This document shows positions 1-54,599 of a stretch of 64,000 nucleotides of DNA, in pieces. Source of the DNA: Trypanosoma brucei (taxonomy: Eukaryota); assembly GCA_000002445.1 (NCBI GenBank), contig CH464491.1:4448001-4512000 (forward strand). Direction: 5' to 3'. The position numbers and the translations under genes are program-made. Position 1 is the first letter of the stretch, and each line of letters begins with the position of its first letter. The notes beneath the pieces are model-generated. The model worked only from the letters and a program-made list of their open reading frames with translations, searched no databases and was not told the DNA's origin.

Positions 1-2343
1 AGAGCAGCGGCCAGGACCGCCTGAACGCCTGTTGTTGTATCAGGGTGCATTGGGCTAAAAAACTCACGCAACTCCACCAGGGCCTTCATCGCCCTTTTCC
101 TTACGGCGTCCGTGACGTTTGCAGGGGCCCCATCGACTTCTTCGAAGCTGTGATCACCGGGCACGTAGCGAACAGCGCCCACCTGTCGTAAGAAAAGGAG
201 ATTGCATTCCATTTTGGCGGACATTTGAACAAGGGTTTCGTTCGGGTAGCGCTCCTTCAGGGTACAAATCAACTTGTCCGCCGCGCACCGCATATCTGCC
301 TTGTTGAGCGCTACAACTATGGGAAACCGCAGATGGACAAATGTAGCCACAAGCAAGTGCAGCTCGGCAGCCCCCCACGCTGGCAGGCGCCGAACCAGCT
401 CCACTTCAGTAGAGATTCCAAGACACCGCAGCAATGCATCGATGGATGACGGTGGACTGTGGTACCCCGTGAACACCGTTCGTATTTTCAATGGTTTTCG
501 AACTACGGCAGCCCACTGTGCACGGAGATTGTCATATATCCAGCTGTGCAATTCTCCTCGAACCCACATGATGTCGTCGAAGGTGGATCCTTCCCCTGGT
601 GCACACGCTGATCCGTCCGCGTAAGTCGCGCCTGCACCATCAACAATGTGTACGAGAACATCTGCATCGCACAAATCGTTGAGGAATCGATTCCCCTTTC
701 CCTTACCCCGGTAGGCACCTTGCACGAGACCAGCGACATCCTTCACCACTATGGGGTGTCGCCGGTGTGGAGCTCCAAAAGTAGTAACATGACCATACTT
801 GGCGCCACACTGTCCCGTGCTTGACGGCGAGGGTTGTGACAAACTACACGGACAGAAAATGGGACCGAAACCACAGCCGACATTGGGGTCGATTGTGGTG
901 AAAGGGAACGCTGCAACCCTTGCAGCCTTGCTCTCGTTATCGGGATTAGTTACCGCATTGTAAAACGTGCTCTTCCCTGCCGACGGTTTGCCAATGAGGC
1001 CGATAGTAAACTCGAGACTCCTACCCCTCCCACCAGCATCGTAACAACCTCCACCTTCGCAATCCCCTCTGCCATACGGCCGAAAAGACGGAGAACCACC
1101 CGCAAGCACTTCTTGCGCACGTCGGTGCGACTCGGCAATGCATGCACTCCTCGCACCTTCACTGTCATCCTCCTCCCACAGCCAATCATTCACTTTTCGT
1201 TCTTTCCATTGCTCTCCCGTCGCAACACCAGCACTGTCGTGCATTTCCCCTCCCTCCGCGAAAACGGACTTCAGGAAATCAAGAGCACCAACTGCTTGTT
1301 CTCCGGTGAACATTATCGCAGGTAGCAACATACCACTTTTGCCCTCAGGTCCCTCTCGCATGAACGCTGTGGTGTCAGAAACTAGCTTTGCCCTCCAGCG
1401 CTCGTAGAAAACATGGTGATTGGAAGGTCCGCCCACGATATCGAACTTTGGAATTTCAGCAGGGTATCCCTTTGACAAAGCCACACACAGTCGTAGCGCT
1501 GCGAGTGGGCTGCCCTCCAGGTCTCCGTCCGCGCAGTTCAACAGCAACGGCAGCGACACGGTGGTCATCTTTCCACGATGAACGCATTCCTCGCCGTAAA
1601 CACATGAAATCATTTCTAACTCCTCCTCGCAAGCCGCGGTAAGAGTACTATCCCCACCATCATTACCAGGGTTTCTCTGCGCAATGCGCTCAAAGAATGA
1701 CTTCAGAGACATGACAATATTCTGTAGCGTTGGGAAGCTGTGTGCGTGCTCATGCCACAAAACGTCAGCGTGAGGTCGACATGCATCCGCGAAAGATGCG
1801 CTCTCCGCTGGGTCCACAACCCCATCTTTCCTGCCCACGATATGCAGGGAAGGTAAAGGTCCCAGGAAACCATCGTTTTCAGCATCGTAACGAGCACTGT
1901 CTTTAAATGCTGAGGCAAGCCCAGGGAAGGTACGACGGGGATCTGGTGTCGCAGCTAATATAAGTCCCTTCAGCGGGGGCCCGTAGCCGTCACCGCCGTG
2001 AAGCTCACGAAGCATTACGTAACGGGCGGCGACAAGGCCACCCTGAGAAAATCCCAAAATGACGTCGTAGCGCATCCCCTCAGCAGCCATGTGGCGCTTC
2101 ACCACCGCGTCCCCGATACTGTAATCATCATCCGCTTCGCTGGGCTCTTCGCCGCACGGCTGCCTGCACCACGAATACGTTGCAATGGAGTTGGAGCCCG
2201 TGTGGTCATGCGGTAACGGATAGGGGGCATCCACAAAATCAAATTCTGCGACAGAAGAAAGCTTAACACACAACCTATTCAGCTGATGCTCAAATATTTC
2301 ACCTGTTTGGCCGAACCCGTGCAGACATAAAACTTTCACCATT
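1..2343 (-). CDS. FSH1/OVCA2-type serine hydrolase domain fused to an Obg-family (YchF/OLA1-like) GTPase. It is 3'-truncated by the window edge and has an apparent +1 frameshift about 64 nt after the ATG at 2343.
   Basis: Minus-strand translation from 2343 gives MVKVLCLHGFGQTGEIFEHQL, then a stop. The adjacent frame continues with no stop down to nt 1. It encodes LCVKLSSVAEFDFVDAPYPL, the nucleophile elbow GFSQGG, then HEHAHSFP. After a linker come the GTPase motifs: G1 GLIGKPSAGKST, FPFTTIDPNVG, G3 DVAGLVQGAYRGKGKGNRFL, G4 NKAD. The ORF is absent from the track because it has no in-window stop. Confidence 0.6.
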
Positions 2344-4001
2344 ATATTTAAATGTATTTTTTTGTCTTGGACCTGCATGGAAGAAAAACAAAAATATGAA
2401 TACATACACGACGTAAACAAATGCACCCGGAGAGTTATAGTCGTGCTCTTTTTTTTGTTGTTTGTAAGGCAGCCCGTTGCCTCACTTCAACCTATGTATA
2501 GCGACGAAAGGATTTACGTGTCTTTTTCACATATGCTTATTGGCATATCCAACTGTGATGAACTGTCAACGCGGCGAATTCAAACGGCCACCACATGCGG
2601 ATTTTCAGCCGCTATCATGTCAGAACCGCGGAAAAACTTGGAAAATGGAACGAGATCCTTCAATGATTTGGGAATGGAATGGAATGTAAAGAAGCTCCGT
2701 CACCTTCATTTCATCCCTTCCCTCCCTTTTGTTTCCTGGCGATTTCGCTTTTCAATAAGGATTTTCCCGACCTCCGCAGGACCTAAGAAATTTCGGGGCT
2801 AACAGCCAAAACGATAACGGCCTGTAGGAAGTTTATAAAATATATAACCAACAAATGAACAAATGGGCATTGGCGCGACTAACAACTGTCCAACTACGTT
2901 TGAGTTATACGGTTTGTTCCTCCTCTCCGCGTCTACTCGTGGTTGTTAAAACAGTCACCGCACTGCAGCTGCCGCGTAGCATTCACATTACTTCTACCGT
3001 TGTTTCCTTCCTCCATCTCCTCCACTGTTCTACGGAAAATGGCATTGCCATCATCATCATCATCATCTGTTTTAAAGGCAATTCGATACAGCTTAAACAA
3101 TGAAGCATAGATTTGCGTGTACATGTGCCTAGGTAAGCAACTATGAAAGAAAAGTAGGAGAACGATAACACCAAATGACCCTGCCAACGGGCAAAAGAGA
3201 TAACGTAACTGCGGTTTGCCACCTCTAAAGAAACAAATAAACAGAAATATAACGCACAATGCGCGCGCACTATTCGGGAAACTGAGTAAGCGGTTGGCAA
3301 TGCGCATCGTCGTGAAAACGTACATCTATCCATCTATAGATGAGGAGGCATGCTTAGACGAATTTATTGATTTAATTTGGTTTTATATTGGTCCAATTTA
3401 CTCTTTACTTCTCCTCATGAGTTGTTATGACGGCATATACTGGCAAAAGCGTACCGCCTCTACTTCCATGCCACCGAGAGAAAATATCAAACAGACGAAC
3501 TAGGGGGGAGGGTCCGCAACACGATAAAATATAATACATTACACCAAAAAAGAAAACAATGCAGAAAGTAGTTTGGGAAAATATCAGAGAGTTGAAAATA
3601 AAAATACCAGAAACAAAAAACAAAACGCCATCATCGCAGGCACGACCGCGCGGGGCGGAACCCTGGACCCCCTTCCCGCCTTCCTCTCCACGTTATCATT
3701 CTCCGTTACACGCTTTCTCAACGTCATCTCCTCCACCACTCCCGTCCTTTAGCCACCCTATCGCCCCCAGTTCAACCCAAAGAACGCGCAGAGGCCTTCA
3801 GCCACCTTCCCTGATAGGACGAGTAAACATGATGAAGCATCACCAACGAAATGAATTAATGAAACCAAGCTTTATAAGTACAGATATATATGTATGCATG
3901 TATGTATGTGCAGTCGCACACTGTCAACCATATGTTGGCGGCACGAATTGTTTGGCTGAAACTAAGTTGATTACACCACCACCTCACAATGCCAATGGTG
4001 G

Positions 4002-6755
4002 TTACGAGCCCACACCTAACCAACTGGCTAGGCGGCTGTTCGTGGCCAACTCCAGAACCGTTACATCAAATTGGTCTGATTCCTCCGTCAGTGCGGAAAG
4101 TTGCGTTATGGAAATGTCGCCGTTTCGCTCAAAGTGATGCCTTTTTCTCGGTGGTCCCAACGGTTTCGGTATGTCCTCCCTCATGTTCTTCGAACACAAA
4201 GAAGAGTTGAAGGTGAAATGGCAGTGTGCGACGCCGCGTGAGTGACAGTCAGCGCCTCTCACAGCCCCCACAGGCATTCTCAACGCGTAGTGGGGGTCAT
4301 CAGCTATGTCCTGAAGCAGCCAATACACTGACTGCGCCAAGTGCCGACACCGCTTCTGCCCGGTTTCCGTCTTTAAAATTCGCTCGTGTGCCCTCGGCTT
4401 ACAAGTGCAGGATAGGTGCTGAAACACGCTTGACCAGTGCGGGTCGCCGGCACCAATTTTGACATCCTCGTTCAACAACGGCTGTAAGTTCATATGCACC
4501 ATAACGTATAAGTGACGGCGCACAGAGCACGCCAACGCAAAGCGTCCGTACCCAAGTATCTGGAAGTGACAGTCGGAAAAGTAACCTTCTGCTGCTGACC
4601 GCACCGCGTCGACAGACGCGTTGAAAACATTCTTGGTAAAAAAAGCTGACATGAATTCGTATATCCGGAGTCGTTGTGCTGGAGAGAGTGACCCAAACAA
4701 CTTCGGTCGTGCATCCGGATTGAACCTCGGTGGATACGTTGAAGATAGTGAAACATCGTCGCAAATAGTAGGACGGGCAATGCCCACGCGCATAGTTCCC
4801 ACATGCTTCATCAACATTTCTGGTCGGCATGCTTGGCTACGCAAATCTCGCGCTAACATACTAGTCCCGCACAACTCATCAAAAAGGCGATCACGTTCCC
4901 TTTCCACGTCAAAGTTGGCACGGTCAGAAGGGGTCAGCGAATCAACAGTTTCATTAAATTTATCGACCCACTCCTTGACACAATTGTAGTCGCCTGCAGC
5001 GTGAACACCCACATGATTAGCCGCCTCCGAAAAAGCTGCTGTTCGCGACAAACACCCACTACTCTTAACGTCTATTCGGAAATATTGCACAGCAAAAGCA
5101 AGAATTCGCACAAAGTGGTGGATATCCCGCGAAGTATCCGTCAATGAGTTCACACACGCTGAGATAGAAGCCAATTCTTTGTCAACTCTACGACAGAAAC
5201 TGGTGTCACCTACAGCGAATATCGGTAGTATGAAAGCATTTTCGTTCCATGCAGTCCTAACCCACGACCTCAGGACCTCTGAGAAGCGGTGGTCGCCGTC
5301 GGCAACCACAACGATGAGGCGCTGCCTGTCTCTCCGCTCGGTCGACAGCGCCGTCCACGACACGCACAACTGTCGTAGTGCTATGTCGTCACTAATTGGA
5401 AAAAGGTGAGAGTTACTCGGAGTTTCAAGAAATAAGCAAGCAGCACCATCCGTTATCACAGGCACTTGCGGGAATGGGTCGCCTACCGAAGACCGGTTGA
5501 TGGTGCCATTAGGTACCCATTCAGCTATGACCTCCTCATCAGACTCGGTTTTCAGCTGTAGCGGTTGTACCTCGTGGATTTCTTCCTTAGCAGTGTTTGA
5601 AGGAAGAAAGCACGCCTCTCGCTTCACAACAGGTTTATCATCGCAATCACCACCGAATCCATTAACGCCCACACCGCGCCCCAGATTATCATGGGTGTCA
5701 CTGGTAGCAGCAGCGCCGAGCGAAGCAGGGTGAAGTGATACGGTAGGCACTGACCTAGTACCATTCTTTCTTTGCACAGCACGGCCAAATGCAGCTGTTG
5801 TCTCCTCGTTCCCCTTCAGCAACATCGATAACCAATCGCTGACAACCGCATTACGGTCACCGTCCGAGCATGCCCATCCCTGTTGTCGCACACACTCCTC
5901 CTTACAGAAAGTTTCACCCACACCACAGTGGTTGTGCCCCGGCTTAAGTTGGTCGACCACGTTTTCCCCCGTGCTCTGGACACGACGGTCGTCGTCCCCA
6001 GCTGGATGAAACGGTGGCACAACCGCCTCTTTCGGTGCTACAGCCGCCGTCAGAAGGAGAGAGCCCACAAGCCCAGACCAAACCATGCGCACGCTCTCTA
6101 ATCCAGGCACATTATGTTCAGGACTGAGAACACCGGTGAAGTCAACATGAATCCTTGTCTGAAATGGCTCTGGCATGAACAGTAAAGCGACACGTGTAAC
6201 CTGCAACGCGCTGCGATACGCAGAAACGCAGTCCACCTTTGGAAGATCGTCCCACGCTAGCTGTACATAAAGCACCGGCATCGCATGCTTAAATTCGGCA
6301 CCCAAGACAACCACATCCAACAGCAACCACGCCGCCACGATGCCGTCAGCTCTTACGGTGTCCTTTTCCCTTGTGTCCCCTTGCCCCTCGATTTTCGGCT
6401 CAACGCGTACACCATTACGCAAACACGGTCTCGCACCTAACCCGGTACCGCGCAGGCTGCTCATAAAGGTCGTTGATGATGCTAGAAACTGCATAACAAC
6501 ACCACACGCATCTGTTTTTGATCCTGTTGTCGCCAACGTCTCCATAGGTTCCTTGCCGAACACAACGACAATGGAATCGCGAGCATCCCTCCTACAGTTG
6601 TTCCGCTTTGCTGCCCTTTCCCATTGGGCCTTAATGCTCTCCTGGTTGCCCATAAGCTCCACAATATTTACGGCAAGGGCTCGTTGAACACCCGCAGAAG
6701 AACATACTAAACGCGACGGTGAGAATGTGTTGGACGAGATGGGTATGTGATGCAT
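4002..6755 (-). CDS. Large conserved hypothetical protein (917 aa ORF). No family recognised.
   Basis: Uninterrupted 2.75 kb minus-strand ORF in the same orientation as neighbouring genes, with protein-like composition. The start may be an internal Met. Confidence 0.55.
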   Translation of the reverse strand: MHHIPISSNTFSPSRLVCSSAGVQRALAVNIVELMGNQESIKAQWERAAKRNNCRRDARDSIVVVFGKEPMETLATTGSKTDACGVVMQFLASSTTFMSSLRGTGLGARPCLRNGVRVEPKIEGQGDTREKDTVRADGIVAAWLLLDVVVLGAEFKHAMPVLYVQLAWDDLPKVDCVSAYRSALQVTRVALLFMPEPFQTRIHVDFTGVLSPEHNVPGLESVRMVWSGLVGSLLLTAAVAPKEAVVPPFHPAGDDDRRVQSTGENVVDQLKPGHNHCGVGETFCKEECVRQQGWACSDGDRNAVVSDWLSMLLKGNEETTAAFGRAVQRKNGTRSVPTVSLHPASLGAAATSDTHDNLGRGVGVNGFGGDCDDKPVVKREACFLPSNTAKEEIHEVQPLQLKTESDEEVIAEWVPNGTINRSSVGDPFPQVPVITDGAACLFLETPSNSHLFPISDDIALRQLCVSWTALSTERRDRQRLIVVVADGDHRFSEVLRSWVRTAWNENAFILPIFAVGDTSFCRRVDKELASISACVNSLTDTSRDIHHFVRILAFAVQYFRIDVKSSGCLSRTAAFSEAANHVGVHAAGDYNCVKEWVDKFNETVDSLTPSDRANFDVERERDRLFDELCGTSMLARDLRSQACRPEMLMKHVGTMRVGIARPTICDDVSLSSTYPPRFNPDARPKLFGSLSPAQRLRIYEFMSAFFTKNVFNASVDAVRSAAEGYFSDCHFQILGYGRFALACSVRRHLYVMVHMNLQPLLNEDVKIGAGDPHWSSVFQHLSCTCKPRAHERILKTETGQKRCRHLAQSVYWLLQDIADDPHYALRMPVGAVRGADCHSRGVAHCHFTFNSSLCSKNMREDIPKPLGPPRKRHHFERNGDISITQLSALTEESDQFDVTVLELATNSRLASWLGVGS

Positions 6756-7262: not shown

Positions 7263-9422
7263 CTACTCCTCAGCACGATGTGCATCATGGAGTTGCTTAG
7301 ACCAAAGCTCGCTATACAAACCGCCTCTCTGTAGCAGCTCCTCGTGGGTGCCGCTCTCACTCAGGGACCCTTTCCCGTCAAGCACGAAAATTTTGTCAGC
7401 ACTCATGATGCTTGTGAGCCGATGTGCTATAAGTATGAGGGTGCGTCTCTTCCCACCAGCGTCACGCAGTTGCTGCATCACATGCATTTCCGTTACGCTG
7501 TCCAGAGCCGCAGTAGCCTCGTCTGCCAGTAGGATTGGCGGATTGCTGAGAACAACACGCGCGATAGCTATCCGTTGCTTCTCACCACCGGAAAGTTTTA
7601 GCCCCCGTTCCCCCACAACCGTATCGTATTTATCACTCATGTTCATTATGCTGTCATGTATACAAGCCACCTTTGCGGCCCTTATCATCTCCTCCTCCGT
7701 AGCGTCCGGCCTGCCATAACAGATGTTGTACCGCAATGATTCATTAAAAAGTACCGTATCTTGCGGTATTACACCGATAGACTCACGAAAGCTCGGTATT
7801 TGCAAATCCGTCAATGGCTGCCCGTCGATGAGAACGGACCCCGAAAGCGGGTCGTAGAAACGATAAATCAAGCGGAAAATAGTACTTTTTCCACTTCCGG
7901 AGGGGCCGACGAAGGCAACAGTGCTTCCACCAGGTATGGCAAGTGAGAGGTTACGCAAGACGAATCGATCATCGCCGCCGGTTTTGAAAGCGAAACACAC
8001 GTCTCGCAACTCAATGGTACCACTTACTAACTCTAGCGCCTTCGCATTTGCCTTCTGCTTCACACTGTTTTGCACGTCGAGGAGGGCGATCATTGCTTGC
8101 ATATTCTGTGTAGATGCCTGTATATCTCTGTAAATCATACCCAGGAAACTTAGCGGAGTATAAAGTTGCATGAGCAAGGCGTCCACCAATACCAAATCGC
8201 CCACAGTCATCGAACCCGCGAGCACACCACATGTGGAAAGGTACAATGAGACCAGAGCAGCTAAGACAAATATCGCATGCTGACCAAAATTCAAGAGCGA
8301 CATAGACTGATCCAGCCGCATGAGCTGATGATTCATGTCCGCCGTCTCGCGCCGAAGGCGCGACTCCTCATAACTTTCGCGGCCGAAGTACTTTACCGTT
8401 TCGTAATTAAGAAGGGAGTCCACGGTTAGCCCTCCTACGCGGCTGTCTCCCTTGTTGAAGCGCGCCCGGTACTCAGCACGCCAATTAGATACAACGTATG
8501 TCCACCCAATGTACAACACAACCGCAGAAAATGCTGTTAAGATAAAAGGGGTTCCCGCACAACTCTTCATGACTGTGCAAACCAACACCACTTCAAATGC
8601 TGTGGGAATCACCATAAACAAAAGCGCATGCGCAAGGGACCAAAACGCACGGCTGCCGCGATCAAGATCCTTGCTTAGAACACCCGTCTCCCGACCAAGA
8701 TGGTACTGTAAGTCAAGGGAGTGTAATTTTGCGAAGAGTTCCATTGCAATCGTTGTTGATGCATGACAGCCAACGGGAGCGAACAAAGCAGACTTCATTT
8801 CCTCAGTGAAAGAGCTTAACAACCTACTGATGCCATACGCAACTACCAGACCGAACACACCCAAATGCAATGCTTCTGTCACCGTTGTGACACAAGCGCC
8901 AACCTCAGTACTATTTGTGAGCACATCTATAATCGTCTTGAACCAAAATGGCACTGCCACCTTCAGCACCTTGGCCAGGACGACACACGTTACGCTGGCA
9001 ACTACCAGTGCACGATACCCCGGCTTCCCAGCCGGCCACAAATGGTGTAGCACGTGCCCCATCACTCTGTAAATTGGTATTTTATTAGAATCCTCATCCG
9101 TCACTACAGAACCCCCTACAATATCAGGCTTTTTGGAGGGTTCCCACTGTTCCTGATCCTTCCGCTGCGTGGGCTTGGCGTTACGCTTTCCTTTTCGGTC
9201 GGTGCCAACTGACGGAGAGGGCCCGAACATCGGTCGATTCGGATGATGAAAAGCGCGGACGGCTGTCCTCAGTGCCGGAACCGCCGTTGCGATCGGCAAT
9301 GTCAGCCCATGGATACGGCAAAAAAATGCGATTCCGCAAAAATGATGCCCATTCAAAACGGAGACACTACTTGAACGCACACGAACGCAATGTACCAAAT
9401 GACAGAACGCAGCGCGCCGCAT
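7263..9422 (-). CDS. ABC transporter, ABCB-type half transporter (ATM1/ABCB7-like), probably mitochondrial. The likely start is the Met at 9422; the ORF extends upstream to 9578.
   Basis: N-terminal basic presequence MRRAAFCHLVHCVRVRSS and six TM-type hydrophobic segments. NBD with Walker A GPSGSGKST, ABC signature LSGGEKQRIAIARV, Walker B ILLADEATAALD and H-loop IAHRL. Confidence 0.8.
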   Translation of the reverse strand: MRRAAFCHLVHCVRVRSSSVSVLNGHHFCGIAFFCRIHGLTLPIATAVPALRTAVRAFHHPNRPMFGPSPSVGTDRKGKRNAKPTQRKDQEQWEPSKKPDIVGGSVVTDEDSNKIPIYRVMGHVLHHLWPAGKPGYRALVVASVTCVVLAKVLKVAVPFWFKTIIDVLTNSTEVGACVTTVTEALHLGVFGLVVAYGISRLLSSFTEEMKSALFAPVGCHASTTIAMELFAKLHSLDLQYHLGRETGVLSKDLDRGSRAFWSLAHALLFMVIPTAFEVVLVCTVMKSCAGTPFILTAFSAVVLYIGWTYVVSNWRAEYRARFNKGDSRVGGLTVDSLLNYETVKYFGRESYEESRLRRETADMNHQLMRLDQSMSLLNFGQHAIFVLAALVSLYLSTCGVLAGSMTVGDLVLVDALLMQLYTPLSFLGMIYRDIQASTQNMQAMIALLDVQNSVKQKANAKALELVSGTIELRDVCFAFKTGGDDRFVLRNLSLAIPGGSTVAFVGPSGSGKSTIFRLIYRFYDPLSGSVLIDGQPLTDLQIPSFRESIGVIPQDTVLFNESLRYNICYGRPDATEEEMIRAAKVACIHDSIMNMSDKYDTVVGERGLKLSGGEKQRIAIARVVLSNPPILLADEATAALDSVTEMHVMQQLRDAGGKRRTLILIAHRLTSIMSADKIFVLDGKGSLSESGTHEELLQRGGLYSELWSKQLHDAHRAEE

Positions 9423-10281
9423 TTTTTTTTTTTTAATTACTGACAGCGTGTCTGCAGAAGCTATCAGCACTGTCTCCCAAATATATATATATAATAGGCA
9501 GGTGGCGTGAGAAAAAAATAAAGAAAAGGGGAGACTAGCACCACTGAAGCCATGCAACAAGGTTCTTGTGGGTACCAACAGATGAACTTATGACCGCAGG
9601 ATGACTTGGACACTAGGAAGGTACCAAAAGAGAACCAAAAAGACTAACACAGCCCCCACCACAGCATAACGGTAGGCAGCAATGCTGAATACACCAGGAC
9701 GTCAGTACAAACATCGTAAAACAAAAATACGGAAAAAGTGGCCCAATTTGAACTCTCAGCTAGCCCGATCTTCCAGTGGACCCATGCGCGTAGAGGCATG
9801 CACGAATACTCTTTACTCGAGGCGTCGAGCGGGCACTTTGCTCCATTGAATCACATTACCAGACATTGCGCAAACCAATGGTACAAATAAATGCCAACCT
9901 CCACACACAAACCATCGCAGACTCAAAAACAAGACTAACACCAGAACACACGGAGCATGAAAAGAACTTGGCACTGAACAGATAACTGGTGAAAGCAATA
10001 AAAAATGTGACACCGACTTACAGGGTCACTGCAACCCCATCAACAGAAAACGCGCTCGGTGCTTTCTTCTCTTTCCTCTATGCACGTTTCGGGACCCACG
10101 AAACCATTTCCACAACCCAGCGTGTTTTAAGAGAAGGGAAATTTTTGACAGTCACCCACATACACATACATGCGCTATGAAGGAACGAACAAAGTAAAAG
10201 AAGTCCACAAAACAAAAAAAACGGGGGGAGCACGGGCCGCCCCATCATGTAACACCAAAGCTGTTGCATCATACACTGCAG

Positions 10282-11664
10282 CTATCTCCCGGAACCACTG
10301 AGACTAAGCTGAGAGAATCTCTCAGAGCGCCGCTGGCCCGGGACGCGGAACAGCCACGGCGTCTCCGGAATGTTTCCTACCGCCTCATTCCGCGAAACAC
10401 GCTCACAGCATGCCTCGACAAAATCCAATTCGTACCTAGTAAACCTAAAAGTGCTATACCAGACTCCTACACCACGCCATCGATGAGCACCAGCGGGGGG
10501 ATCAACAAAGACCTCACGGTTAAATCCCGCTCGCCACAGATACGGCGCCATCGCGTCCACACCACGTAGTAAGATTGTGCCATCACCAGTTAGCTCCAGT
10601 GTCACATGGGAATTGGGAAAGCGGCGGACGAGAGTCCAGCCGCTCTTTTCAACACCACAGGCGCCACATTGACTCGGAGAGGCATCCTCACTGTTGCATG
10701 ACATTTCCTGCTTACACTTGGGACAGTGTGCGGTCCAAAGGCGTAGCTGACTGGGTAGCACACGCACCTCCACTGCAGGAGCTTCGTACTGTACCACCAC
10801 GACGTCATCGTCGGGTGTCGCCTCCAAACTGGCATCAGACTCTAAGGAAGGTGAATCTGTCAAGCGTTCCAATGAATGTCGTTCGCGCTTAACCCGGATG
10901 AACTCAGACTTGGAAAATGCTGCGTCCGGCATCGCACTAGAAGAAACACTGGTAGGAACGCCGGTACCCTCCTCGGTGAATACTTTCTGCGTAGACGTCT
11001 GCGTCATATCTAAAACCTCCGTTACCTCCTCTTCCTTCCGCTGCTTACGCGAAATGTCTCCGCTGCAGTAGCTACCATCGGCATTCAACACCAACTTTTG
11101 TGTCCCTTGGGGCATCTCCGAAAGGACGTGCAGCTGCCATAAGTCAACCTCAAGGCTCGACACGAGCACACCTCCCTTGCAGACGGGACATGGTGCTCTC
11201 CTGTCCCGCAGGGAGCGCTGCTTCCTGAATAACGTAATCCACGACTCCAAATCACAGCATTGCACATGGAGGCAGGTTTCGCCTCGAACAGGGCAATACA
11301 TCGCAGTGCGGGAGTAAGGGCAATAGAGAGAGAACTCCATTGTGGAAACTTCAATATCATCCCCACCCGGTTTCCCAAAAGCGATATCCCACGCTCGCTT
11401 CCGATGGATCTGAAGTAACTCCACGCTACGAGCGTCCCAGCGCTTTGCCAATTCCATGTCGCGAAGAAGGCGTCTCTTTACATCTAAAAGGTCATCCATT
11501 CCGTCAGAAGACGATACGGCAACCCTCCCGTGTGCTACTGCTCGCGCCCTCGAGCTCCGAGCGTTGGCTTGTGAGCCGAAAAGGAGAACTGGGGGCAATG
11601 GTACCCCTTCGCCGTGACGAACTGAGGAGCGTGTTGGCATCAACAAACCAGTACTACACCCCAC
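10282..11664 (-). CDS. SP-RING/MIZ-type zinc finger protein (putative SUMO E3 ligase-like) with an additional C-terminal zinc ribbon.
   Basis: CPYSRTAMYCPVRGETCLHVQCCDLESWITL...CPVCKG matches the SP-RING pattern (CP..C.H.QCFD..W...CPVC). A later CPKCKQEMSCN...CGACG forms a zinc ribbon. The true start may be an internal Met (MDDLLDVK). Confidence 0.55.
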   Translation of the reverse strand: MGCSTGLLMPTRSSVRHGEGVPLPPVLLFGSQANARSSRARAVAHGRVAVSSSDGMDDLLDVKRRLLRDMELAKRWDARSVELLQIHRKRAWDIAFGKPGGDDIEVSTMEFSLYCPYSRTAMYCPVRGETCLHVQCCDLESWITLFRKQRSLRDRRAPCPVCKGGVLVSSLEVDLWQLHVLSEMPQGTQKLVLNADGSYCSGDISRKQRKEEEVTEVLDMTQTSTQKVFTEEGTGVPTSVSSSAMPDAAFSKSEFIRVKRERHSLERLTDSPSLESDASLEATPDDDVVVVQYEAPAVEVRVLPSQLRLWTAHCPKCKQEMSCNSEDASPSQCGACGVEKSGWTLVRRFPNSHVTLELTGDGTILLRGVDAMAPYLWRAGFNREVFVDPPAGAHRWRGVGVWYSTFRFTRYELDFVEACCERVSRNEAVGNIPETPWLFRVPGQRRSERFSQLSLSGSGR

Positions 11665-24922: not shown

Positions 24923-27900
24923 CTATGCGCCGTCAGTCCGGGTGGTACTTGCTGCACTGGAGGTGACCGAGTTTAAGGCCGCTGCCAGTGCTTGCGCAGC
25001 ACCAGGCATTGGAGCAGGAGCGGATGTGGATGTCTCATCAGTGCTAGAGGCATCCAACCGAACAGCGGCCTCCGCCGAGGGATTGGCATCAGTGGGCTTC
25101 TCAGCGTCCTCATCGGCGGCTGCTTCAGTAGATTTCTCAGCACCCTCATCGGCGGCTGCTTCAGTAGATTTCTCAGCACCCTCATCGGCGGCTGCTTCAG
25201 TAGATTTCTCAGCACCCTCATCGGCGGCTGCTTCAGTAGATTTCTCAGCGTCCTCATCGGCGGCTGCTTCAGTAGATTTCTCAGCGTCCTCATCGGCGGC
25301 TGCATCAGTGGGCTTCTCAGCATCTTCTTCACCACCCGCAGCGCCAAGTTCTGCAGCGGCGATTTCCGCAGTCGTGACTGCGTCTGCAGCGTTCAAGCTG
25401 GCGGGATCCACGTGGAGGTCATCGGCGCCCCTCAAACGGGTCGTCTCCCCACCGTCATCACCATGTGGCACTTGAACGATGCGGCTTTTTGCCTCACCCT
25501 GCATACCGTCCTTGCGAACAGGCGTGTAAGTGACGCGAATCATCTTCCCCTGGTCCTCTTCCTGCACCCTGTAGGTACGCACACCTGTGTCAATCACTTC
25601 AAACTCCTCTGTCAGAGGCACCTCCCGCGCCCATTCGATAATTGGCTCTCCCGCCTCTCCACCGAAGTACTCCACTTCCAACTCAAGAGTGCTCCCAACT
25701 ACAGGATCTCCCACCACATTCAGGAAGTTCGTCTGGGGAATGCCAGCAGAGACAGCGCACTCGCTTGTGGCACGAACCGCACGGCCCTGTACACCGTCAA
25801 ATCGTACGGGTGTCACCGTGACTTCAATTGTGCAGTCTACTTCTCGCCGGGTAAGGGCAAGTGTCGCAGTGTTGGGGCGGCCAACCTTCGCGCGGCGGTC
25901 CTGGCGATCTCGGCGGAACCACTGAATCATATGAGCCCCGGCGTGACCACCTGTGTACTGATACTCGAGCGTCAGTACATGCTGCTCGACCAGTTCACCC
26001 GTAATCCGCAAGTCGCGAATCTCTGGGGGTGAAGGCTCGATAGGCTTCTCGAGCACACAGAGGCAAGTCTTTCCCTCTTCTCCCAGCTTGTTAACCGGAG
26101 TGTATTCAACAGCCAAACACTTGCCCACATCCTCAAGGGTAGGAACATACCGCGTTGAATTTTCACCCTCAATGGGGAAGTACTCCTCCGAGTTGTCATC
26201 TTTGCGGAGCCACTGGTAGTAGCTCTCACCCTCTGTACCGCCGGAATAGACAACCTCAACCTCCAGGTCACTCTCTTGAATAAGGTTACCAATAATCTTG
26301 ATGGATTCGCATTCAGGCGGGCCTGCCGCCACAGGACCCGTGATGGCGGACTTGGGCTCACCCGCAACCCAGTCATTTCGCATGGGAGTGAACTCCACCT
26401 TGATGCGACAATCAACATCCTTCGATGTGAGCTTGTAACCTGCCCATGGGTCATTGACATCAATGGAAATTTCCTCGTTGTCGGGAGTAATTCGAAACCA
26501 ATTAAGGGAGGAGTTACCTTCAATACCACCGGAGTAGTCTGCCTCAGCCAACAGCACGTGTCCCTCGGTAGCCTTGCCCTTTATTTCAAGATGAGGGCAG
26601 GTAGGTGGGCCTGCAACGATTGGGGCTGATATGTCAAAGTACAGGAAGGAAAATACCCCGTCAATGTACGCGAGCACTTCAGCACGCAGGCAGCATCCAA
26701 CGTCGGAAACCGTTGGCGTGTAGGTCAGTGTGTTGTTGTCTTCGATCACCTCATAAAAATTATTCTGAGTGCTTCTCATCCAACGAATGTGCAAAATGGT
26801 ATCCTTCTCGTCGTCAGATTGAGTCAATTCCGTGACTTTATACAAATAGCAGTAACCTTGTTTGTGTTTTGACAGTACACCATTGGACTCAGGTACAATT
26901 TCTACACCATCCACAATATACCGGTACTCGTAGTCACCGGCTGGTAAGTAAAGTGTGGTGTGAAAGTAAATCTCACCCTCCTCCTCACAACGCTCGAGTT
27001 CAATGGGATCGGCCCAGTTATTCATTGAACCGACGACGAACACTTCAGTTGCTTCACCAGAAACCTTGAAGGTAACTGGGTAAAGGTAACGAGAGTGGAA
27101 TATGTCCTCAGTTCTCTGCTCGTACGACCGTACGTCCTGCATGCAGCAACTCAACCTAACCGGAACACCCTCGGTGAGGACATTGCGGCTCTCATCATCT
27201 GGTACGAGTCGAATAGAGCAGAGCTGCAGGCACTTAGACTTTTCCCTCGCACGCTGAAGCTTCAGCAGGAACGCATCAGCGGACTCCTCCACATTGTCGC
27301 CATCGACGACAAACCCATCCGCAATACAGTACCCAATCTTCCCCTGATAGTGCTCCAAAGCTGCACGTTCCTCAGCAGTGACGGGGTGCCCGTCAATGGA
27401 AACAAGGTTACTGTTGTTGATGGCTATAGCCATGCTGCGGTACGAAGGAACCTCTGTCAATGGGTTTCCCACAAGGTTTAAGGTGTGTAGCGAGGGGAAT
27501 TTACCATAATGTTTGAAGGACGAAATCTTGTTGAAGTTGAGGGAAAGCACACGCAGATTGGGGAGTTTTTCCAATCCCTCAAAACTGTTGATAGCGTTGT
27601 CGCTTAGGCACAAAGTTTCGAGGGAGGAAAAGTTTGAGATGCCGTGCAGGTGCTCGATCTTATTACCCGACAAGTAGAGATGACGAAGATACGGCGTTTT
27701 CCTCAGGAAATCCACCGATCCAATCTCATTAATAGAAAGATCCAGGACCCTAAGGTGCTCCATGGTAATGTCAATATCAAAATCTGTCAGCTCATTTTCC
27801 CGAAGATAAAGGTACTCCGTCGCGTAATTTGCCTGCGTTAATTCCCTGGCGCTCCTGATATCCTTCCTGTTCATGACCAACCCACTGGGTTTCACATTTG

Positions 27901-27937
27901 AGAATGGGCCTGCTCGCCTTATCGCAGACGCACTCAT
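24923..27937 (-). CDS. Leucine-rich-repeat protein with a CBM48/AMPK-beta-type glycogen-binding-like domain, about five ~100 aa beta-rich repeats, and a C-terminal acidic 12-aa tandem repeat.
   Basis: N-terminal LRRs (LRVLDLSINEIGSV, LYLSGNKIEH, LCLSDNAINSF, LSLNFNKISS). VFVVGSMNNWADPIELE...YFHTTLYLPAGDYEYRYIVDG resembles CBM48. Modules of the form GPPxCxxLxIxG...YSGG.EG...W.R recur. The C-terminus is (AADEDAEKSTEA)n. Confidence 0.6.
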   Translation of the reverse strand: MSASAIRRAGPFSNVKPSGLVMNRKDIRSARELTQANYATEYLYLRENELTDFDIDITMEHLRVLDLSINEIGSVDFLRKTPYLRHLYLSGNKIEHLHGISNFSSLETLCLSDNAINSFEGLEKLPNLRVLSLNFNKISSFKHYGKFPSLHTLNLVGNPLTEVPSYRSMAIAINNSNLVSIDGHPVTAEERAALEHYQGKIGYCIADGFVVDGDNVEESADAFLLKLQRAREKSKCLQLCSIRLVPDDESRNVLTEGVPVRLSCCMQDVRSYEQRTEDIFHSRYLYPVTFKVSGEATEVFVVGSMNNWADPIELERCEEEGEIYFHTTLYLPAGDYEYRYIVDGVEIVPESNGVLSKHKQGYCYLYKVTELTQSDDEKDTILHIRWMRSTQNNFYEVIEDNNTLTYTPTVSDVGCCLRAEVLAYIDGVFSFLYFDISAPIVAGPPTCPHLEIKGKATEGHVLLAEADYSGGIEGNSSLNWFRITPDNEEISIDVNDPWAGYKLTSKDVDCRIKVEFTPMRNDWVAGEPKSAITGPVAAGPPECESIKIIGNLIQESDLEVEVVYSGGTEGESYYQWLRKDDNSEEYFPIEGENSTRYVPTLEDVGKCLAVEYTPVNKLGEEGKTCLCVLEKPIEPSPPEIRDLRITGELVEQHVLTLEYQYTGGHAGAHMIQWFRRDRQDRRAKVGRPNTATLALTRREVDCTIEVTVTPVRFDGVQGRAVRATSECAVSAGIPQTNFLNVVGDPVVGSTLELEVEYFGGEAGEPIIEWAREVPLTEEFEVIDTGVRTYRVQEEDQGKMIRVTYTPVRKDGMQGEAKSRIVQVPHGDDGGETTRLRGADDLHVDPASLNAADAVTTAEIAAAELGAAGGEEDAEKPTDAAADEDAEKSTEAAADEDAEKSTEAAADEGAEKSTEAAADEGAEKSTEAAADEGAEKSTEAAADEDAEKPTDANPSAEAAVRLDASSTDETSTSAPAPMPGAAQALAAALNSVTSSAASTTRTDGA
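25083..25334. repeat. 36-bp tandem repeat inside the LRR/CBM48 CDS (unit gcttcagtagatttctcagcaccctcatcggcggct, about 7 copies). It encodes the AADE(D/G)AEKSTEA repeats.
   Basis: Near-identical 36-nt units are directly visible at 25083-25334. Two variants occur (…gcaccc… and …gcgtcc…). Confidence 0.9.
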
Positions 27938-34110: not shown

Positions 34111-34546
34111 CTACCGCCAGTACTGAAATAGTGAAAGGGAGAACTTAAGAACGAAGTTAAAACAAAGATAAAACCACATATGTCACAGATTCATGGGAGA
34201 ATGCAAATTAGGTCACATTAACCTCCGCATATTTTTTTTGTGCTTTGGTTAAACATTGATCCCTCCCCCTATGCAACCACCACACCTCGGTAGATCAGAG
34301 GGACGGCAGAATGTAGAAGCAGACAATTTGGGTGAAATCAAACCACCCTCTAAAAAGTCCTGAAAGACCACCGCAGCCGACCAACACATCAGGTACTTCA
34401 CAACTTTTTCTTTAATTAACACGTTTAATTGTCGTTGTTGTTATTGCTGCTGGCGTCAACACAGCTCCAATAGGTACCTTTGCGGTTAAACATGGTCTAT
34501 GTTTCGCTTTGTTTTTTGCTTTCAACAAAACAAATTCGTTATTAGC

Positions 34547-34572
34547 GTGTGTGTGTGTGTGTGTGTGTGTGT
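34547..34572. promoter_or_regulatory. (GT)13 dinucleotide tract about 440 bp upstream of the first minus-strand gene. GT-rich tracts mark divergent transcription start regions in T. brucei.
   Basis: gtgtgtgtgtgtgtgtgtgtgtgtgt is seen directly. It sits at the edge of a 9.6 kb gene-free strand-switch region. Confidence 0.3.
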
Positions 34573-35847: not shown

Positions 35848-35862
35848 GGGGGGGGGGGGGGG
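35848..35862. repeat. G15 homopolymer inside a ~1.1 kb GC-rich island (34.8-35.9 kb). All six frames are open there, with no coherent coding signal.
   Basis: gggggggggggggggg at 35848-35862. Overlapping track ORFs occur on both strands at 34780-35940. Confidence 0.6.
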
Positions 35863-38513: not shown

Positions 38514-38953
38514 ATGCTTCGACTGAAGAAGCTTCAAATCAGGGGCAACCTCGACAACAGCAACGGCGCTGGGGAAATATTTCGTATTGAAATGCTGAAA
38601 GAGATGGTGCCGACGTATAAAGAGGTGGGAATAATTGGAGAGGTGCGCCTCTCCCCGAACCCCACGATTCACAACTTGGAACAGACATCAGCAAATGACG
38701 ACTTCATAAAGTAACTTTCCGTATGGAAGAAACTATATGAAAGTTGACACTATCTGTGTCCCTAAAACTGGATAATGTCGAACAGCTGTCAAAGATTACA
38801 ACACTAAAGGGGTTGAGCCTTTCATGGTGCACTAATATTATACATGGGTGGGAAAGCAATGATAAACTTCCACAGCTCCGAGTTCTTTATTTGGAAGGGG
38901 GCGGCAAATATGCTGGGGGTGCAACCTATGAGAGGTATCAGCAACATGTTTAA
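38514..38953 (+). pseudogene. Degenerate leucine-rich repeat protein (LRRP/ESAG8-like) gene fragment.
   Basis: Two adjacent short ORFs encode LRR-like text: LKKLQIRGNLDN, LSKITTLKGLSLSWCTNIIHGWESNDKLPQLRVLYLEG. This is the L..L..LxLS.C..I pattern of trypanosome LRRP/ESAG8. They are broken by stops. Confidence 0.3.
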
Positions 38954-41920: not shown

Positions 41921-42019
41921 NNNNNNNNNNNNNNNNNNNNNNNNNNNNNNNNNNNNNNNNNNNNNNNNNNNNNNNNNNNNNNNNNNNNNNNNNNNNNNNN
42001 NNNNNNNNNNNNNNNNNNN
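41921..42019. other. Scaffold gap (N run). The flanking sequence at 41540-41920 has long homopolymers (C14, C12, A16) typical of low-quality read ends.
   Basis: Ns are seen directly. Track ORFs contain X runs. Confidence 0.95.
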
Positions 42020-54452: not shown

Positions 54453-54599
54453 GCTTTCCTTTCATGGGGAACACTGCTGTGCTCCGGCTACGGCATCATA
54501 CAGCACAGGGATCAGCAGCGTCTTGCTGGGACACCGTCTTTCATTTGTCGGTCCCTGGTCACGTGCCAGTGTGCCATCAGCAGTATCATCCGCACTAAG

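What the first reader, a model, noticed from the sequence alone, without database searches (positions are those of the whole stretch)
1..2343. Serine hydrolase (FSH1/OVCA2) fused to an Obg-family GTPase, with a frameshift 64 nt into the CDS
A single >2.2 kb open frame joins a complete FSH1-type hydrolase (oxyanion region LHGFGQ, nucleophile GFSQGG, Asp/His triad context) to a YchF/OLA1-like G domain (GKPSAGKST, DPNVG, DVAGLVQGA…GNRFL). Two things are unusual. The G4 motif is NKAD rather than the YchF NxxE, which suggests GTP rather than ATP specificity. Between the two lies an acidic EEELEMISCVYGEE stretch reminiscent of an RWD-like module. I do not recall this fusion as a described architecture. 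The first 21 codons (MVKVLCLHGFGQTGEIFEHQL) are in a different frame from the rest (cagctgGaatagg). That is either a 1-nt sequencing error in a gg run or a genuine disabling mutation.
Basis: partly seen in the sequence, partly recalled or inferred. Interest (0 to 1): 0.6.

Follow-up and report, generated by a model that had tools for sequence, protein, structure and literature searches.

The report
Intact esterase–RWD–GTPase fusion gene, no frameshift
This is the intact, already annotated Trypanosoma brucei gene for a protein that joins an FSH1-type esterase, an RWD docking domain and a Ygr210-type GTPase; the reported frameshift is a misreading, and the fusion is conserved across many eukaryotes but has never been studied functionally.

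Summary
The open frame is real. It lies on the minus strand, starts at ATG 2342-2340 and runs 780 codons without a stop off the window start. About 111 C-terminal codons lie outside the window.

The frameshift is not there.

The 780 residues are 100% identical to T. brucei brucei TREU927 XP_829747.1 ("hypothetical protein, conserved").

Domains:
- FSH1 serine hydrolase, aa 2-211. Ser99, Asp173 and His201 are invariant in 36 orthologues.
- A complete RWD domain, about aa 235-364. By profile it is closest to RWDD1/DFRP2 and GCN2.
- An Obg-like G domain of the Ygr210 subfamily, from aa 445. It is not YchF, so NKAD is the family norm.

The fusion is conserved in kinetoplastids, green algae, dinoflagellates, diatoms, chytrids and an ichthyosporean. 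Marine invertebrates have RWD-GTPase only, and most fungi have the GTPase alone. Databases already list the architecture. I found no functional study.

My best inference (about 0.4) is a ribosome-associated GTP switch that its RWD domain docks onto GCN1 at stalled ribosomes, like DRG2-DFRP2 joined in one chain, carrying an active esterase.

Verdict: ordinary as a discovery, modestly interesting as a lead on the orphan Ygr210 GTPases.

The parts
1..2342 (-). Coding sequence, first 780 codons of an 891-codon gene. It starts at ATG 2342-2340, the last complete codon ends at position 3, and the gene continues beyond the window start.
   Evidence: Translation has no stop. It is 100% identical to residues 22-801 of T. 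brucei brucei TREU927 XP_829747.1 (P0123).
1710..2339 (-). FSH1/OVCA2-type alpha/beta serine hydrolase domain (aa 2-211).
   Evidence: Pfam PF03959, E 1.3e-42, 146 bits against a cut-off of 21. The AF2 model matches yeast Fsh1 (1ycd) at E 1e-10 with TM 0.70-0.72 normalised to the target.
2046..2048 (-). Codon of the nucleophile Ser99, in the GFSQG nucleophile elbow.
   Evidence: Invariant in 36 of 36 orthologues. It corresponds to OVCA2 Ser117 in the GxSxG motif (PMC7077851).
1824..1826 (-). Codon of the catalytic Asp173 (GRKDG).
   Evidence: Invariant in 36 of 36 orthologues.
1740..1742 (-). Codon of the catalytic His201 (HAHSFP). His197 is also invariant.
   Evidence: Invariant in 36 of 36 orthologues. 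The Asp-to-His spacing is 28 residues, against 27 in OVCA2. The assignment of His201 as the catalytic histidine is inferred.
2274..2285 (-). Site of the alleged frameshift (cag ctg aat agg = Q20 L21 N22 R23). It is in frame.
1251..1640 (-). RWD domain (about aa 235-364), including EEELEM (helix 1) and the YPAEIP motif at aa 293-298.
   Evidence: Pfam RWD scores 29.5 bits against a cut-off of 22.8, and 24 of 25 orthologues hit RWD. The family profile hits RWDD1 (2ebm) at 1.4e-17 and the GCN2 RWD at 1.7e-12. The AF2 model has pLDDT 84.8, and its top Foldseek hits are all RWD domains.
1011..1250 (-). Acidic helical linker followed by a Gly/Arg-rich, low-confidence segment (aa 365-444).
   Evidence: In the AF2 model, helices cover aa 377-413, and pLDDT is below 50 at about aa 424-440. 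The linker is poorly conserved across lineages.
3..1010 (-). Ygr210-type Obg-like G domain (aa 445-780), cut by the window edge. It includes a helical insert at aa 587-672 (nt 327-584).
   Evidence: Pfam MMR_HSR1 and PF08438 YGR210-like_G4. NCBIfam PRK09602 at 6e-56. 1wxq by sequence at 1.3e-27. Foldseek 1wxq at 1.6e-17 with TM 0.72.
966..992 (-). G1/P-loop GKPSAGKST (aa 451-459; Lys457).
   Evidence: GLxGKPSxGKS is invariant in the 36 orthologues.
894..908 (-). G2/switch I FPFTT (aa 479-483).
   Evidence: PFTT is invariant.
729..740 (-). G3 DVAG (aa 535-538), followed by the Obg-type glycine-rich GAYRGKGKGNRFL.
   Evidence: Invariant D, V, A, G, L ... G.G.GN.FL.
294..305 (-). G4 NKAD (aa 680-683).
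   Evidence: N and K are invariant and D is present in 35 of 36 orthologues. 1wxq has the same NKAD.
213..221 (-). G5 SAK (aa 708-710).
   Evidence: The Ala is invariant.
2343..2405 (-). The 21 in-frame codons upstream that the TREU927 model includes. They are probably 5' UTR or intergenic and not coding. A polypyrimidine tract at 2379-2397 is followed by AG at 2373-2374.
   Evidence: Orthologues start at MV[KR][VI]LCL. The upstream ATG at 2405-2403 is GTG in another T. brucei isolate. The T. b. gambiense model starts at MVKV. The role of the splice acceptor is inferred from general knowledge of trypanosome trans-splicing.

Best explanation
What it is (shown; confidence above 0.95). This is the intact 5' 87% of the T. 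brucei gene XP_829747.1/Q380Z6. The gene encodes a conserved four-module protein: an FSH1-type Ser-Asp-His esterase, an RWD domain, a Ygr210-subfamily Obg-like GTPase with a helical insert, and a C-terminal beta-rich domain shared with P. horikoshii PH0525. That last domain lies outside the window. There is no frameshift.

How it most likely works (inferred; about 0.4).
1. The G domain is a GTP-specific switch (NKxD). Like its Obg-family relatives DRG/Rbg, YchF and Obg, it would bind the ribosome near the GTPase-associated centre.
2. The RWD domain is most similar to RWDD1/DFRP2 and GCN2. It would dock the protein onto the RWD-binding domain of GCN1 on stalled or collided ribosomes. The protein would then be a single-chain counterpart of the two-protein DRG2-DFRP2 (Rbg2-Gir2) module.
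3. The N-terminal esterase keeps an invariant catalytic triad. It would be the effector brought to that site, hydrolysing an ester or thioester substrate that is still unknown.
For: Identity:
- The frame is continuous and 100% identical to the deposited TREU927 protein.
- Pfam finds FSH1, RWD, MMR_HSR1 and YGR210-like_G4, all above their gathering thresholds.
- The AF2 model has pLDDT 83.7. It matches 1wxq at 1.6e-17 and yeast Fsh1 (1ycd) at 1e-10.

Both enzymes appear to be kept active: Ser99, Asp173, His201 and G1-G5 are invariant or nearly so across 36 orthologues spanning several eukaryotic supergroups.

The fusion is real and old:
- 137 of 237 retrieved relatives carry FSH1+RWD+GTPase, including complete transcriptome ORFs.
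- 51 carry RWD+GTPase, mostly from marine invertebrates.
- Architecture tracks the G-domain tree.

Link between the RWD domain and GCN1:
- The family RWD profile hits RWDD1 at 1.4e-17, GCN2 at 1.7e-12 and RNF25 at 3e-11, and IMPACT at 0.005.
- These four proteins are described as GCN1 binders (bioRxiv 10.64898/2026.04.27.721104; PMC8629797).
- The acidic residue equivalent to GCN2 D37, predicted to contact GCN1 R2312, is Glu252 here. It is D or E in 141 of 176 family members.
- GCN1 exists in trypanosomatids (PMC4889150 and PMC7176912).

Precedent: another Obg-family GTPase, DRG2/Rbg2, works with an RWD protein (DFRP2/Gir2) and Gcn1 on collided ribosomes.
Against: - No Ygr210-family member has a demonstrated ribosome or GCN1 association in the literature I could search.
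- RWD domains also serve other partners, for example RWDD3 with Ubc9 (4y1l among the hits).
- Foldseek E-values for the RWD model are weak (0.03-0.15).
- There is no DFRP-like segment, and the RWD-to-GTPase linker is not conserved.
- Characterised FSH1/OVCA2 enzymes prefer long-chain alkyl esters and resemble acyl-protein thioesterases (APT1/2 hits). That points to lipid or acyl substrates and not obviously to translation.
- The Chlamydomonas orthologue is deleted in the viable lf5-2 strain, and no phenotype has been attributed to it.
- The C-terminal domain gave no Pfam TGS hit.
Confidence: 0.45

Rival explanations
1. The protein is a GTP-regulated lipid or acyl-protein (thio)esterase with no connection to ribosomes. 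The G domain gates or localises an APT-like hydrolase, and the RWD domain is a generic E2-like protein-interaction module, for example linked to the ubiquitin or SUMO machinery.
For: After yeast Fsh1, the best structural matches of the hydrolase domain are acyl-protein thioesterases 1 and 2, lysophospholipase and carboxylesterases. OVCA2 and Fsh1 prefer long-chain alkyl esters. The RWD profile also hits RWDD3, a Ubc9 partner, and weakly hits E2 enzymes. No ribosome data exist for Ygr210 proteins.
Against: Every characterised branch of the Obg family (Obg, DRG, YchF, Nog1) acts on ribosomes (PMC8629797 and PMC3510508). The strongest RWD similarities are to the GCN1-binding group, not to RWDD3 or E2s. 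The RWD-Ygr210 pairing persists in animals that lack the esterase, so the conserved core is RWD plus GTPase and not esterase plus GTPase.
Confidence: 0.3
2. One reading: the gene carries a 1-nt frameshift 64 nt into the CDS, either a sequencing error or a disabling mutation that makes it a pseudogene.
For: None from the sequence.
Against: That string is absent from the window. The frame is continuous with no stops. An independent assembly has the same sequence. Four deposited T. brucei subspecies proteins read through the site. Catalytic residues are fully conserved.
Confidence: 0.01
3. The long ORF is an artefact: two neighbouring genes, a hydrolase and a GTPase, that merely happen to be in frame or are misjoined in gene models.
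For: Some database entries are fragments lacking one module, for example T. rangeli P0031 (FSH1+RWD only) and P0127 (GTPase only).
Against: The window has no stop anywhere in 780 codons. The RWD domain and linker fill the interval between the two enzymes. The full architecture recurs in 137 proteins from unrelated lineages, including de novo transcriptome ORFs marked complete. The fragmentary entries sit on short contigs or are flagged partial.
Confidence: 0.01
4. The G domain is a YchF/OLA1-type ATPase with an atypical G4 motif.
For: YchF structures are the second-best matches (8kie_y, 2ohf, 1jal; 8kie_y and 2dby). JGI pipelines label some orthologues 'ribosome-binding ATPase YchF'.
Against: The NCBIfam YchF equivalog TIGR00092 scores 56 bits against a cut-off of 279. 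PF08438 (Ygr210-specific) scores above its threshold. 1wxq beats YchF by about 17 orders of magnitude in sequence E-value. G4 is NKxD in 35 of 36 orthologues, not NxxE.
Confidence: 0.03

Closest known systems
Ygr210 subfamily of Obg-like GTPases (P. horikoshii PH0525, PDB 1wxq; S. cerevisiae YGR210C; S. pombe C428.15)
   Same: The G1-G5 motifs match, including NKAD and the Obg-type glycine-rich switch II. The helical insert between G3 and G4 is shared, as are the PF08438 region and the start of the C-terminal domain (1wxq residues 301-354). This is the best match by both sequence and fold.
   Different: The archaeal and fungal members are stand-alone proteins of about 400-436 aa that start at G1. 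Here about 445 residues (esterase, RWD and linker) precede G1. Kinetoplastids also have a longer G2-G3 insert with a Cys/His cluster. No member of the subfamily has a known function.
DRG2-DFRP2 (yeast Rbg2-Gir2), which acts with GCN1 on collided ribosomes
   Same: An Obg-family GTPase is combined with an RWD domain of the RWDD1/GCN2 type. RWDD1 is the top PDB hit of the family's RWD profile. The literature places this pair with Gcn1 on stalled disomes.
   Different: Here the RWD domain and the GTPase are one polypeptide. The GTPase is Ygr210-type, not DRG (no Pfam hit to DRG-specific domains). No DFRP domain was detected. An esterase domain is added. Ribosome or GCN1 binding is untested.
FSH1/OVCA2 family serine hydrolases (yeast Fsh1, PDB 1ycd; human OVCA2)
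   Same: [quoted passage not shown]
   Different: Fsh1 and OVCA2 are single-domain enzymes. Sequence identity is only about 20%. Substrate preference here is unknown. His197, His167 and Trp58 are additionally invariant in this subgroup.
YchF/OLA1 ribosome-binding ATPases
   Same: The overall layout is shared: a G domain, a helical insert and a C-terminal beta-rich domain. YchF structures are the second-best structural matches.
   Different: G4 is NKxD, not NxxE. The YchF equivalog model scores far below its cut-off. The RWD and esterase modules are absent from YchF.
Already annotated orthologues with the same architecture (Leishmania 'Serine hydrolase (FSH1)/50S ribosome-binding GTPase/GTPase of unknown function C-terminal'; Chlamydomonas Cre12.g538200; Novymonas 'Serine hydrolase/GTPase-like protein')
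   Same: The four-module architecture is identical, at 40-57% identity within kinetoplastids and about 30% to algae and chytrids.
   Different: Nothing essential differs. One chytrid model (P0081) carries an extra N-terminal 2H/CPDase domain.

Membership tests
FSH1/OVCA2 serine hydrolase family (Pfam PF03959) | Match to the family HMM above the curated threshold | tested here: met
   146.3 bits against a cut-off of 21, E 1.3e-42, covering profile positions 5-209 of 211.
FSH1/OVCA2 serine hydrolase family (Pfam PF03959) | Ser-Asp-His catalytic triad with the serine in a GxSxG elbow | tested here: met
   Ser99 (GFSQG), Asp173 and His201 are invariant in 36 of 36 orthologues. The triad is defined for OVCA2 and Fsh1 in PMC7077851.
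FSH1/OVCA2 serine hydrolase family (Pfam PF03959) | Alpha/beta-hydrolase fold like yeast Fsh1 | tested here: met
   The AF2 model matches 1ycd at E 1.1e-10 with TM 0.70-0.72 normalised to the target.
FSH1/OVCA2 serine hydrolase family (Pfam PF03959) | Esterase activity or fluorophosphonate labelling | not testable with these tools
   This needs biochemistry.
Ygr210 subfamily of the Obg family of GTPases | Match to the subfamily-specific model PF08438 (YGR210-like_G4) above threshold | tested here: met
   62.7 bits for the window part and 78 bits for the full-length protein, against a cut-off of 24.7.
Ygr210 subfamily of the Obg family of GTPases | Canonical G1-G5 motifs with NKxD and the Obg-type glycine-rich switch II | tested here: met
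   GKPSAGKS, PFTT, DVAGLVQGAYRGKGKGNRFL, NKAD and SAK are conserved across 36 orthologues.
Ygr210 subfamily of the Obg family of GTPases | Closest solved structure is a Ygr210-type protein and not Obg, DRG or YchF | tested here: met
   1wxq scores 1.3e-27 by sequence, against 4.7e-10 for the best YchF. By Foldseek, 1wxq scores 1.6e-17 with TM 0.72.
Ygr210 subfamily of the Obg family of GTPases | Score above the cut-off of NCBIfam PRK09602 (YchF-related putative GTPase, archaeal type) | tested here: not met
   190 bits (E 6e-56) against a cut-off of 387. The query is truncated by the window and has lineage-specific inserts. The model is built for prokaryotic annotation, so this does not weigh against subfamily membership.
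Ygr210 subfamily of the Obg family of GTPases | C-terminal TGS-like beta-grasp domain | tested here: inconclusive
   The domain lies outside the window. The orthologue profile matches 1wxq residues 301-354 at E 8e-4, but there is no Pfam TGS hit. The full model superposes over 441 alignment columns on 1wxq. That the Ygr210 C-terminus is TGS-like is from my own knowledge of CDD and was not tested here.
Ygr210 subfamily of the Obg family of GTPases | GTP binding and hydrolysis | not testable with these tools
   This needs biochemistry.
   56.2 bits against a cut-off of 279.2.
   The motif is NKAD at aa 680-683, and NKxD in 35 of 36 orthologues.
RWD domain (Pfam PF05773) | Match to the RWD HMM above threshold, with a complete domain | tested here: met
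   29.5 bits against a cut-off of 22.8, covering only profile positions 3-71 for the T. brucei sequence alone. 24 of 25 orthologue segments hit RWD, the best at 1.1e-18. The family profile aligns to RWDD1 residues 13-125 at E 1.4e-17.
RWD domain (Pfam PF05773) | YPxxxP motif and alpha+beta sandwich fold | tested here: met
   YPAEIP lies at aa 293-298, and its Y and P are at least 90% conserved. The AF2 model (pLDDT 84.8) shows one helix, three strands and two to three helices. Seven of the top nine Foldseek hits are RWD domains, with probability 0.69-0.99 but weak E-values of 0.03-0.15.
RWD domain (Pfam PF05773) | Binding to the RWD-binding domain of GCN1 (a property of the GCN2, RWDD1, IMPACT and RNF25 subgroup) | not testable with these tools
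   There is only indirect support. The nearest relatives are GCN1 binders. Glu252 aligns with GCN2 D37 and is D or E in 141 of 176 members.
DRG-DFRP module (considered as a working analogy only) | DRG-type GTPase and a DFRP domain in the partner | tested here: not met
   There is no Pfam hit to DFRP or DRG-specific domains in the T. brucei protein or its orthologues. The resemblance is functional and architectural; this protein is not a member.

The most novel reading that the evidence does not exclude
The fusion may work as a Rosetta stone for Ygr210, the only Obg-family branch without a known function. On this reading, Ygr210-type GTPases are GCN1-recruited factors of stalled or collided ribosomes. 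In the many protists, algae and chytrids that carry the fusion, the GTPase would deliver a dedicated serine esterase that cleaves an ester bond on the ribosome, for example that of peptidyl-tRNA or aminoacyl-tRNA. That would be a GTPase-coupled rescue hydrolase of a kind not described so far.
Probability: 0.1. Interest if true: 0.75.

Novelty: already known. Interest (0 to 1): 0.3.

Why it matters
As a discovery it does not matter much. The gene is intact, it is identical to the annotated T. brucei reference gene, and its domain composition is already recorded for many organisms.

Its value is as a lead. Ygr210 GTPases are an orphan branch of a family whose other branches all act on ribosomes. 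The conserved fusion with an RWD domain of the GCN1-binding type gives a specific hypothesis about where they act. In protists, algae and chytrids an esterase with an intact catalytic triad is fused as well. The hypothesis can be tested cheaply in a genetically tractable parasite or in Chlamydomonas.

The work also suggests a small annotation correction. The TREU927 gene model probably starts 21 codons too early.

Tried and rejected
- Frameshift or pseudogene: rejected. The string is absent, the frame is continuous, and an independent assembly is identical.
- YchF assignment: rejected.
- DFRP-like segment after the RWD domain: no Pfam hit in 25 orthologues. The linker helix motif seen in protist members is not conserved in the animal RWD-GTPase proteins.
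- Pfam TGS in the C-terminal domain: no hit. Only the 1wxq C-terminus matches.
- Spliced-leader sequence in the Logan contig L001, to map the 5' end: none found, so the contig looks genomic.
- Looking up the TREU927 protein in the contig index: not on record.
- Literature on the T. brucei or Leishmania protein: nothing was found with FSH1, GTPase, Trypanosoma or activity-based profiling terms. YGR210C appears only in large-scale lists.
- RWD-side residues for GCN1 binding from PMC5438488: the paper covers only the GCN1 side. I used bioRxiv 10.64898/2026.04.27.721104 instead.
- The neighbour-joining tree has no support values and is midpoint-rooted. I use it only to show that architecture tracks the main clades.
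Full report
**1. The observation**

The feature lies on the minus strand. Reading the reverse complement from ATG 2342-2340 gives 780 codons without a stop, down to window position 3. The gene runs off the window start. Over the same stretch the other two frames on that strand are full of stops.

- LHGFGQ, aa 7-12
- GFSQGG, aa 97-102
- EEELEMISCVYGEE, aa 239-252
- GKPSAGKST, aa 451-459
- DVAGLV...GNRFL, from aa 535
- NKAD, aa 680-683

The frameshift is not present. The real sequence at 2274-2285 is cag ctg aat agg, so ...FEHQL continues in frame as NRLCVKL. An independent T. brucei assembly (Logan ERR7929162, locus L001) is identical across this site.

**2. Identity of the gene**

The 780 residues are 100% identical to residues 22-801 of T. 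brucei brucei TREU927 XP_829747.1/EAN80635.1/Q380Z6, "hypothetical protein, conserved". They differ at 6-7 positions from the T. b. gambiense and T. b. equiperdum proteins and from another isolate. The window is therefore T. brucei reference sequence, and the gene is already annotated. About 111 C-terminal residues lie outside the window.

The TREU927 model starts 21 codons further upstream. Four observations favour ATG 2342 as the true start, giving 891 aa:
- The T. b. gambiense model starts at MVKV.
- Orthologues in other trypanosomes start MV[KR][VI]LCL.
- The upstream ATG is GTG in the other isolate.
- A polypyrimidine tract followed by AG lies between the upstream ATGs and ATG 2342. That this is the trans-splice acceptor is an inference from general knowledge of trypanosome trans-splicing.

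**3. Domain anatomy**

Pfam finds four families above their gathering thresholds:

| Family | Residues | Score |
|---|---|---|
| FSH1 | aa 2-211 | E 1.3e-42 |
| RWD | aa 238-303 | 29.5 bits (cut-off 22.8) |
| MMR_HSR1 | aa 446-570 | E 2.3e-12, 47.5 bits (cut-off 21.9) |
| YGR210-like_G4 | aa 678-780 | 62.7 bits (cut-off 24.7) |

The G domain belongs to the Ygr210 subfamily, not to YchF:
- The best NCBIfam model is PRK09602, "YchF-related putative GTPase" (6e-56). The true YchF and Obg equivalogs score about 55-60 bits against cut-offs of about 280-400.
- The best solved relative by sequence is P. horikoshii PH0525, 1wxq (1.3e-27). YchF/OLA1 score about 1e-9 to 1e-10.

An AlphaFold2 model of the full-length protein, built on 36 orthologues, has mean pLDDT 83.7. 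Foldseek against the PDB gives these matches:
- 1wxq first, at E 1.6e-17 with TM 0.72 normalised to the target over 441 alignment columns.
- YchF on the 50S subunit second.
- Yeast Fsh1 (1ycd) at E 1e-10 with TM 0.70-0.72.
- Acyl-protein thioesterases and carboxylesterases after that.

The middle region needed a family profile. A 25-sequence alignment of aa 233-418 and its orthologous segments hits these RWD domains over the whole domain:

| PDB hit | E-value |
|---|---|
| RWDD1 (2ebm) | 1.4e-17 |
| GCN2 (1ukx, 2yz0, 7e2k, others) | 1.7e-12 to 8e-10 |
| RNF25 | 3e-11 |
| RWDD3 | 1.8e-7 |
| IMPACT | 0.005 |

Further support for the RWD assignment:
- 24 of 25 segments hit Pfam RWD.
- An AF2 model of this segment has pLDDT 84.8 and shows the helix, strands and helices expected of an RWD fold.
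- Its top Foldseek hits are RWD domains, although with weak E-values.
- The YPxxxP signature is present as YPAEIP at aa 293-298.

After the RWD domain comes an acidic helical linker and a low-confidence Gly/Arg-rich stretch. No DFRP-like domain is detectable.

The C-terminal domain lies outside the window. It matches only the corresponding part of 1wxq and gives no Pfam TGS hit.

**4. Conservation**

I aligned 36 full-length orthologues from these groups:
- kinetoplastids, including Bodo
- Tetraselmis and Dunaliella
- dinoflagellates
- diatoms
- chytrids
- Ichthyophonus
- several transcriptome-derived protists

Invariant or nearly invariant positions:
- In the esterase, Ser99, Asp173 and His201 are invariant, and so are His197, His167 and Trp58.
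- G1 (GLxGKPSxGKS), G2 (PFTT), G3 with the glycine-rich switch II, and the N and K of G4 are invariant.
- NKxD holds in 35 of 36 orthologues.

Both catalytic modules are therefore under purifying selection.

I reclassified 237 retrieved relatives with HMMs built from the four modules:

| Architecture | Number of proteins |
|---|---|
| FSH1 + RWD + GTPase | 137 |
| RWD + GTPase | 51 |
| GTPase only | 46 |

- The RWD+GTPase proteins are about 560 aa. They come mainly from amphioxus, molluscs, annelids, a nemertean and an ascidian, and are named "YGR210C-like" or "C428.15-like".
- The GTPase-only proteins come from fungi and Cystoisospora and start directly at G1.
- A neighbour-joining tree of the G domain separates these three groups. 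Kinetoplastids sit inside the fused group. The tree has no support values and is midpoint-rooted.
- Ygr210 is absent from Arabidopsis, rice, C. merolae, human and E. coli, according to the table in PMC4263083.

**5. What is already known**

The architecture is recorded in public annotation:
- Leishmania: [quoted passage not shown].
- Novymonas: "Serine hydrolase/GTPase-like protein".
- Nitzschia: "translation-associated GTPase".
- Chlamydomonas Cre12.g538200. [quoted passage not shown]

I found no functional study of any member. YGR210C appears only in large-scale lists.

**6. Mechanism**

Shown:
- Domain identities.
- Intact catalytic motifs.
- Deep conservation of the RWD-Ygr210 pairing and of the triple fusion.

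Inferred:
- (a) GTP specificity and switch behaviour, from NKxD and canonical G1-G5 motifs.
- (b) Ribosome association. The Obg, DRG, YchF and Nog1 branches have ribosome-linked roles (PMC8629797 and PMC3510508), and YchF on the 50S subunit is the second-best structural match.
- (c) Docking on GCN1.
- (d) The esterase as the effector delivered to that site.

For (c), the closest RWD relatives are RWDD1/DFRP2, GCN2, RNF25 and IMPACT. These are the proteins described as binding the RWD-binding domain of GCN1 on collided ribosomes. RWDD1/Gir2 does so as the partner of the Obg-family GTPase DRG2/Rbg2. Glu252 aligns with GCN2 D37, which is predicted to contact GCN1 R2312, and this position is D or E in 141 of 176 family members. 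GCN1 exists in trypanosomatids. The protein therefore looks like a single-chain analogue of DRG2-DFRP2. It is not a member of that system, because it has no DFRP domain or DRG-specific domains.

For (d), the substrate is unknown. Characterised FSH1/OVCA2 enzymes prefer long-chain esters and resemble acyl-protein thioesterases. This supports the main rival: a GTP-regulated lipid or acyl-protein esterase unrelated to ribosomes.

My probabilities are about 0.4-0.45 for the ribosome/GCN1 reading, about 0.3 for the lipid/acyl reading, and about 0.1 for the specific idea that the esterase cleaves a tRNA-linked ester.

**7. Verdict**

The ORF, the fusion and the RWD module are real. The frameshift is not.
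The GTPase is Ygr210-type, which makes NKAD normal. The fusion is not undescribed at the level of annotation.
- Novelty: already known.
- Interest is low to moderate (0.3). What remains of value is a testable hypothesis for an orphan GTPase subfamily and a probable correction of the TREU927 start codon.

Noticed in passing
window 2343-2405 (minus strand): The TREU927 gene model (912 aa) starts 21 codons upstream of ATG 2342. Orthologues and the T. b. gambiense model start at MVKV. The upstream ATG (2405-2403) is GTG in another T. brucei isolate (L001). A polypyrimidine tract at 2379-2397 followed by AG at 2373-2374 lies downstream of both upstream ATGs. The reference start codon is probably annotated too far upstream.
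   Followed up: partly
window 786-854 (minus strand; aa 497-518): The kinetoplastid sequences conserve a Cys/His cluster in the insert between G2 and G3: C497-P-C499 ... C512 ... H518, with the pattern CPC...C[DG]A.YGH. Other lineages keep only part of it (CPC or CPS). It may be a metal-binding knuckle. This was not tested.
   Followed up: partly
P0081 (Chytriomyces hyalinus, 995 aa), residues 7-164: One chytrid orthologue model carries an extra N-terminal 2H phosphoesterase/CPDase domain (PF07823 at 9e-17, PF13563 at 5e-10) in front of FSH1-RWD-GTPase. It could hint at an RNA-end or tRNA-related context, or it could be a merged gene model.
   Followed up: partly
window 52105-54382 (+) and 54324-58533 (+): A truncated rDNA unit is present: 5.8S rRNA at 52105-52273 and the 5' part of LSU rRNA (model positions 24-1445) at 52892-54382. 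No SSU was reported. It abuts a 1044-aa ORF with AP-endonuclease and reverse-transcriptase domains, followed by an RNase H ORF. This looks like a non-LTR retrotransposon of the ingi or SLACS type, next to or inserted into rDNA-derived sequence.
   Followed up: partly
window about 34110-43738: All large ORFs from 1 to 34110 are on the minus strand. From 43738 onward they are on the plus strand, starting with a receptor-type adenylate cyclase at 43738-47499. This indicates a divergent strand-switch region. There are no tRNA genes in the window.
   Followed up: no
window 4002-34110 (minus strand): Neighbouring genes on the same strand are a 917-aa ORF without Pfam hits (4002-6755), an ABC half-transporter (7263-9578), an SP-RING/MIZ zinc-finger protein (10282-11664) and an AIR9-like LRR/A9-repeat protein (24923-27937). 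None has an evident functional link to the finding.
   Followed up: no
one search hits P0132-P0170 (amphioxus, molluscs, annelids, nemertean, ascidian): Marine invertebrates encode RWD-Ygr210 proteins of about 560 aa that lack the esterase. According to the literature table in PMC4263083, human has no Ygr210 member. The RWD-GTPase core is therefore older or more widespread than the triple fusion, and it has been lost repeatedly.
   Followed up: partly
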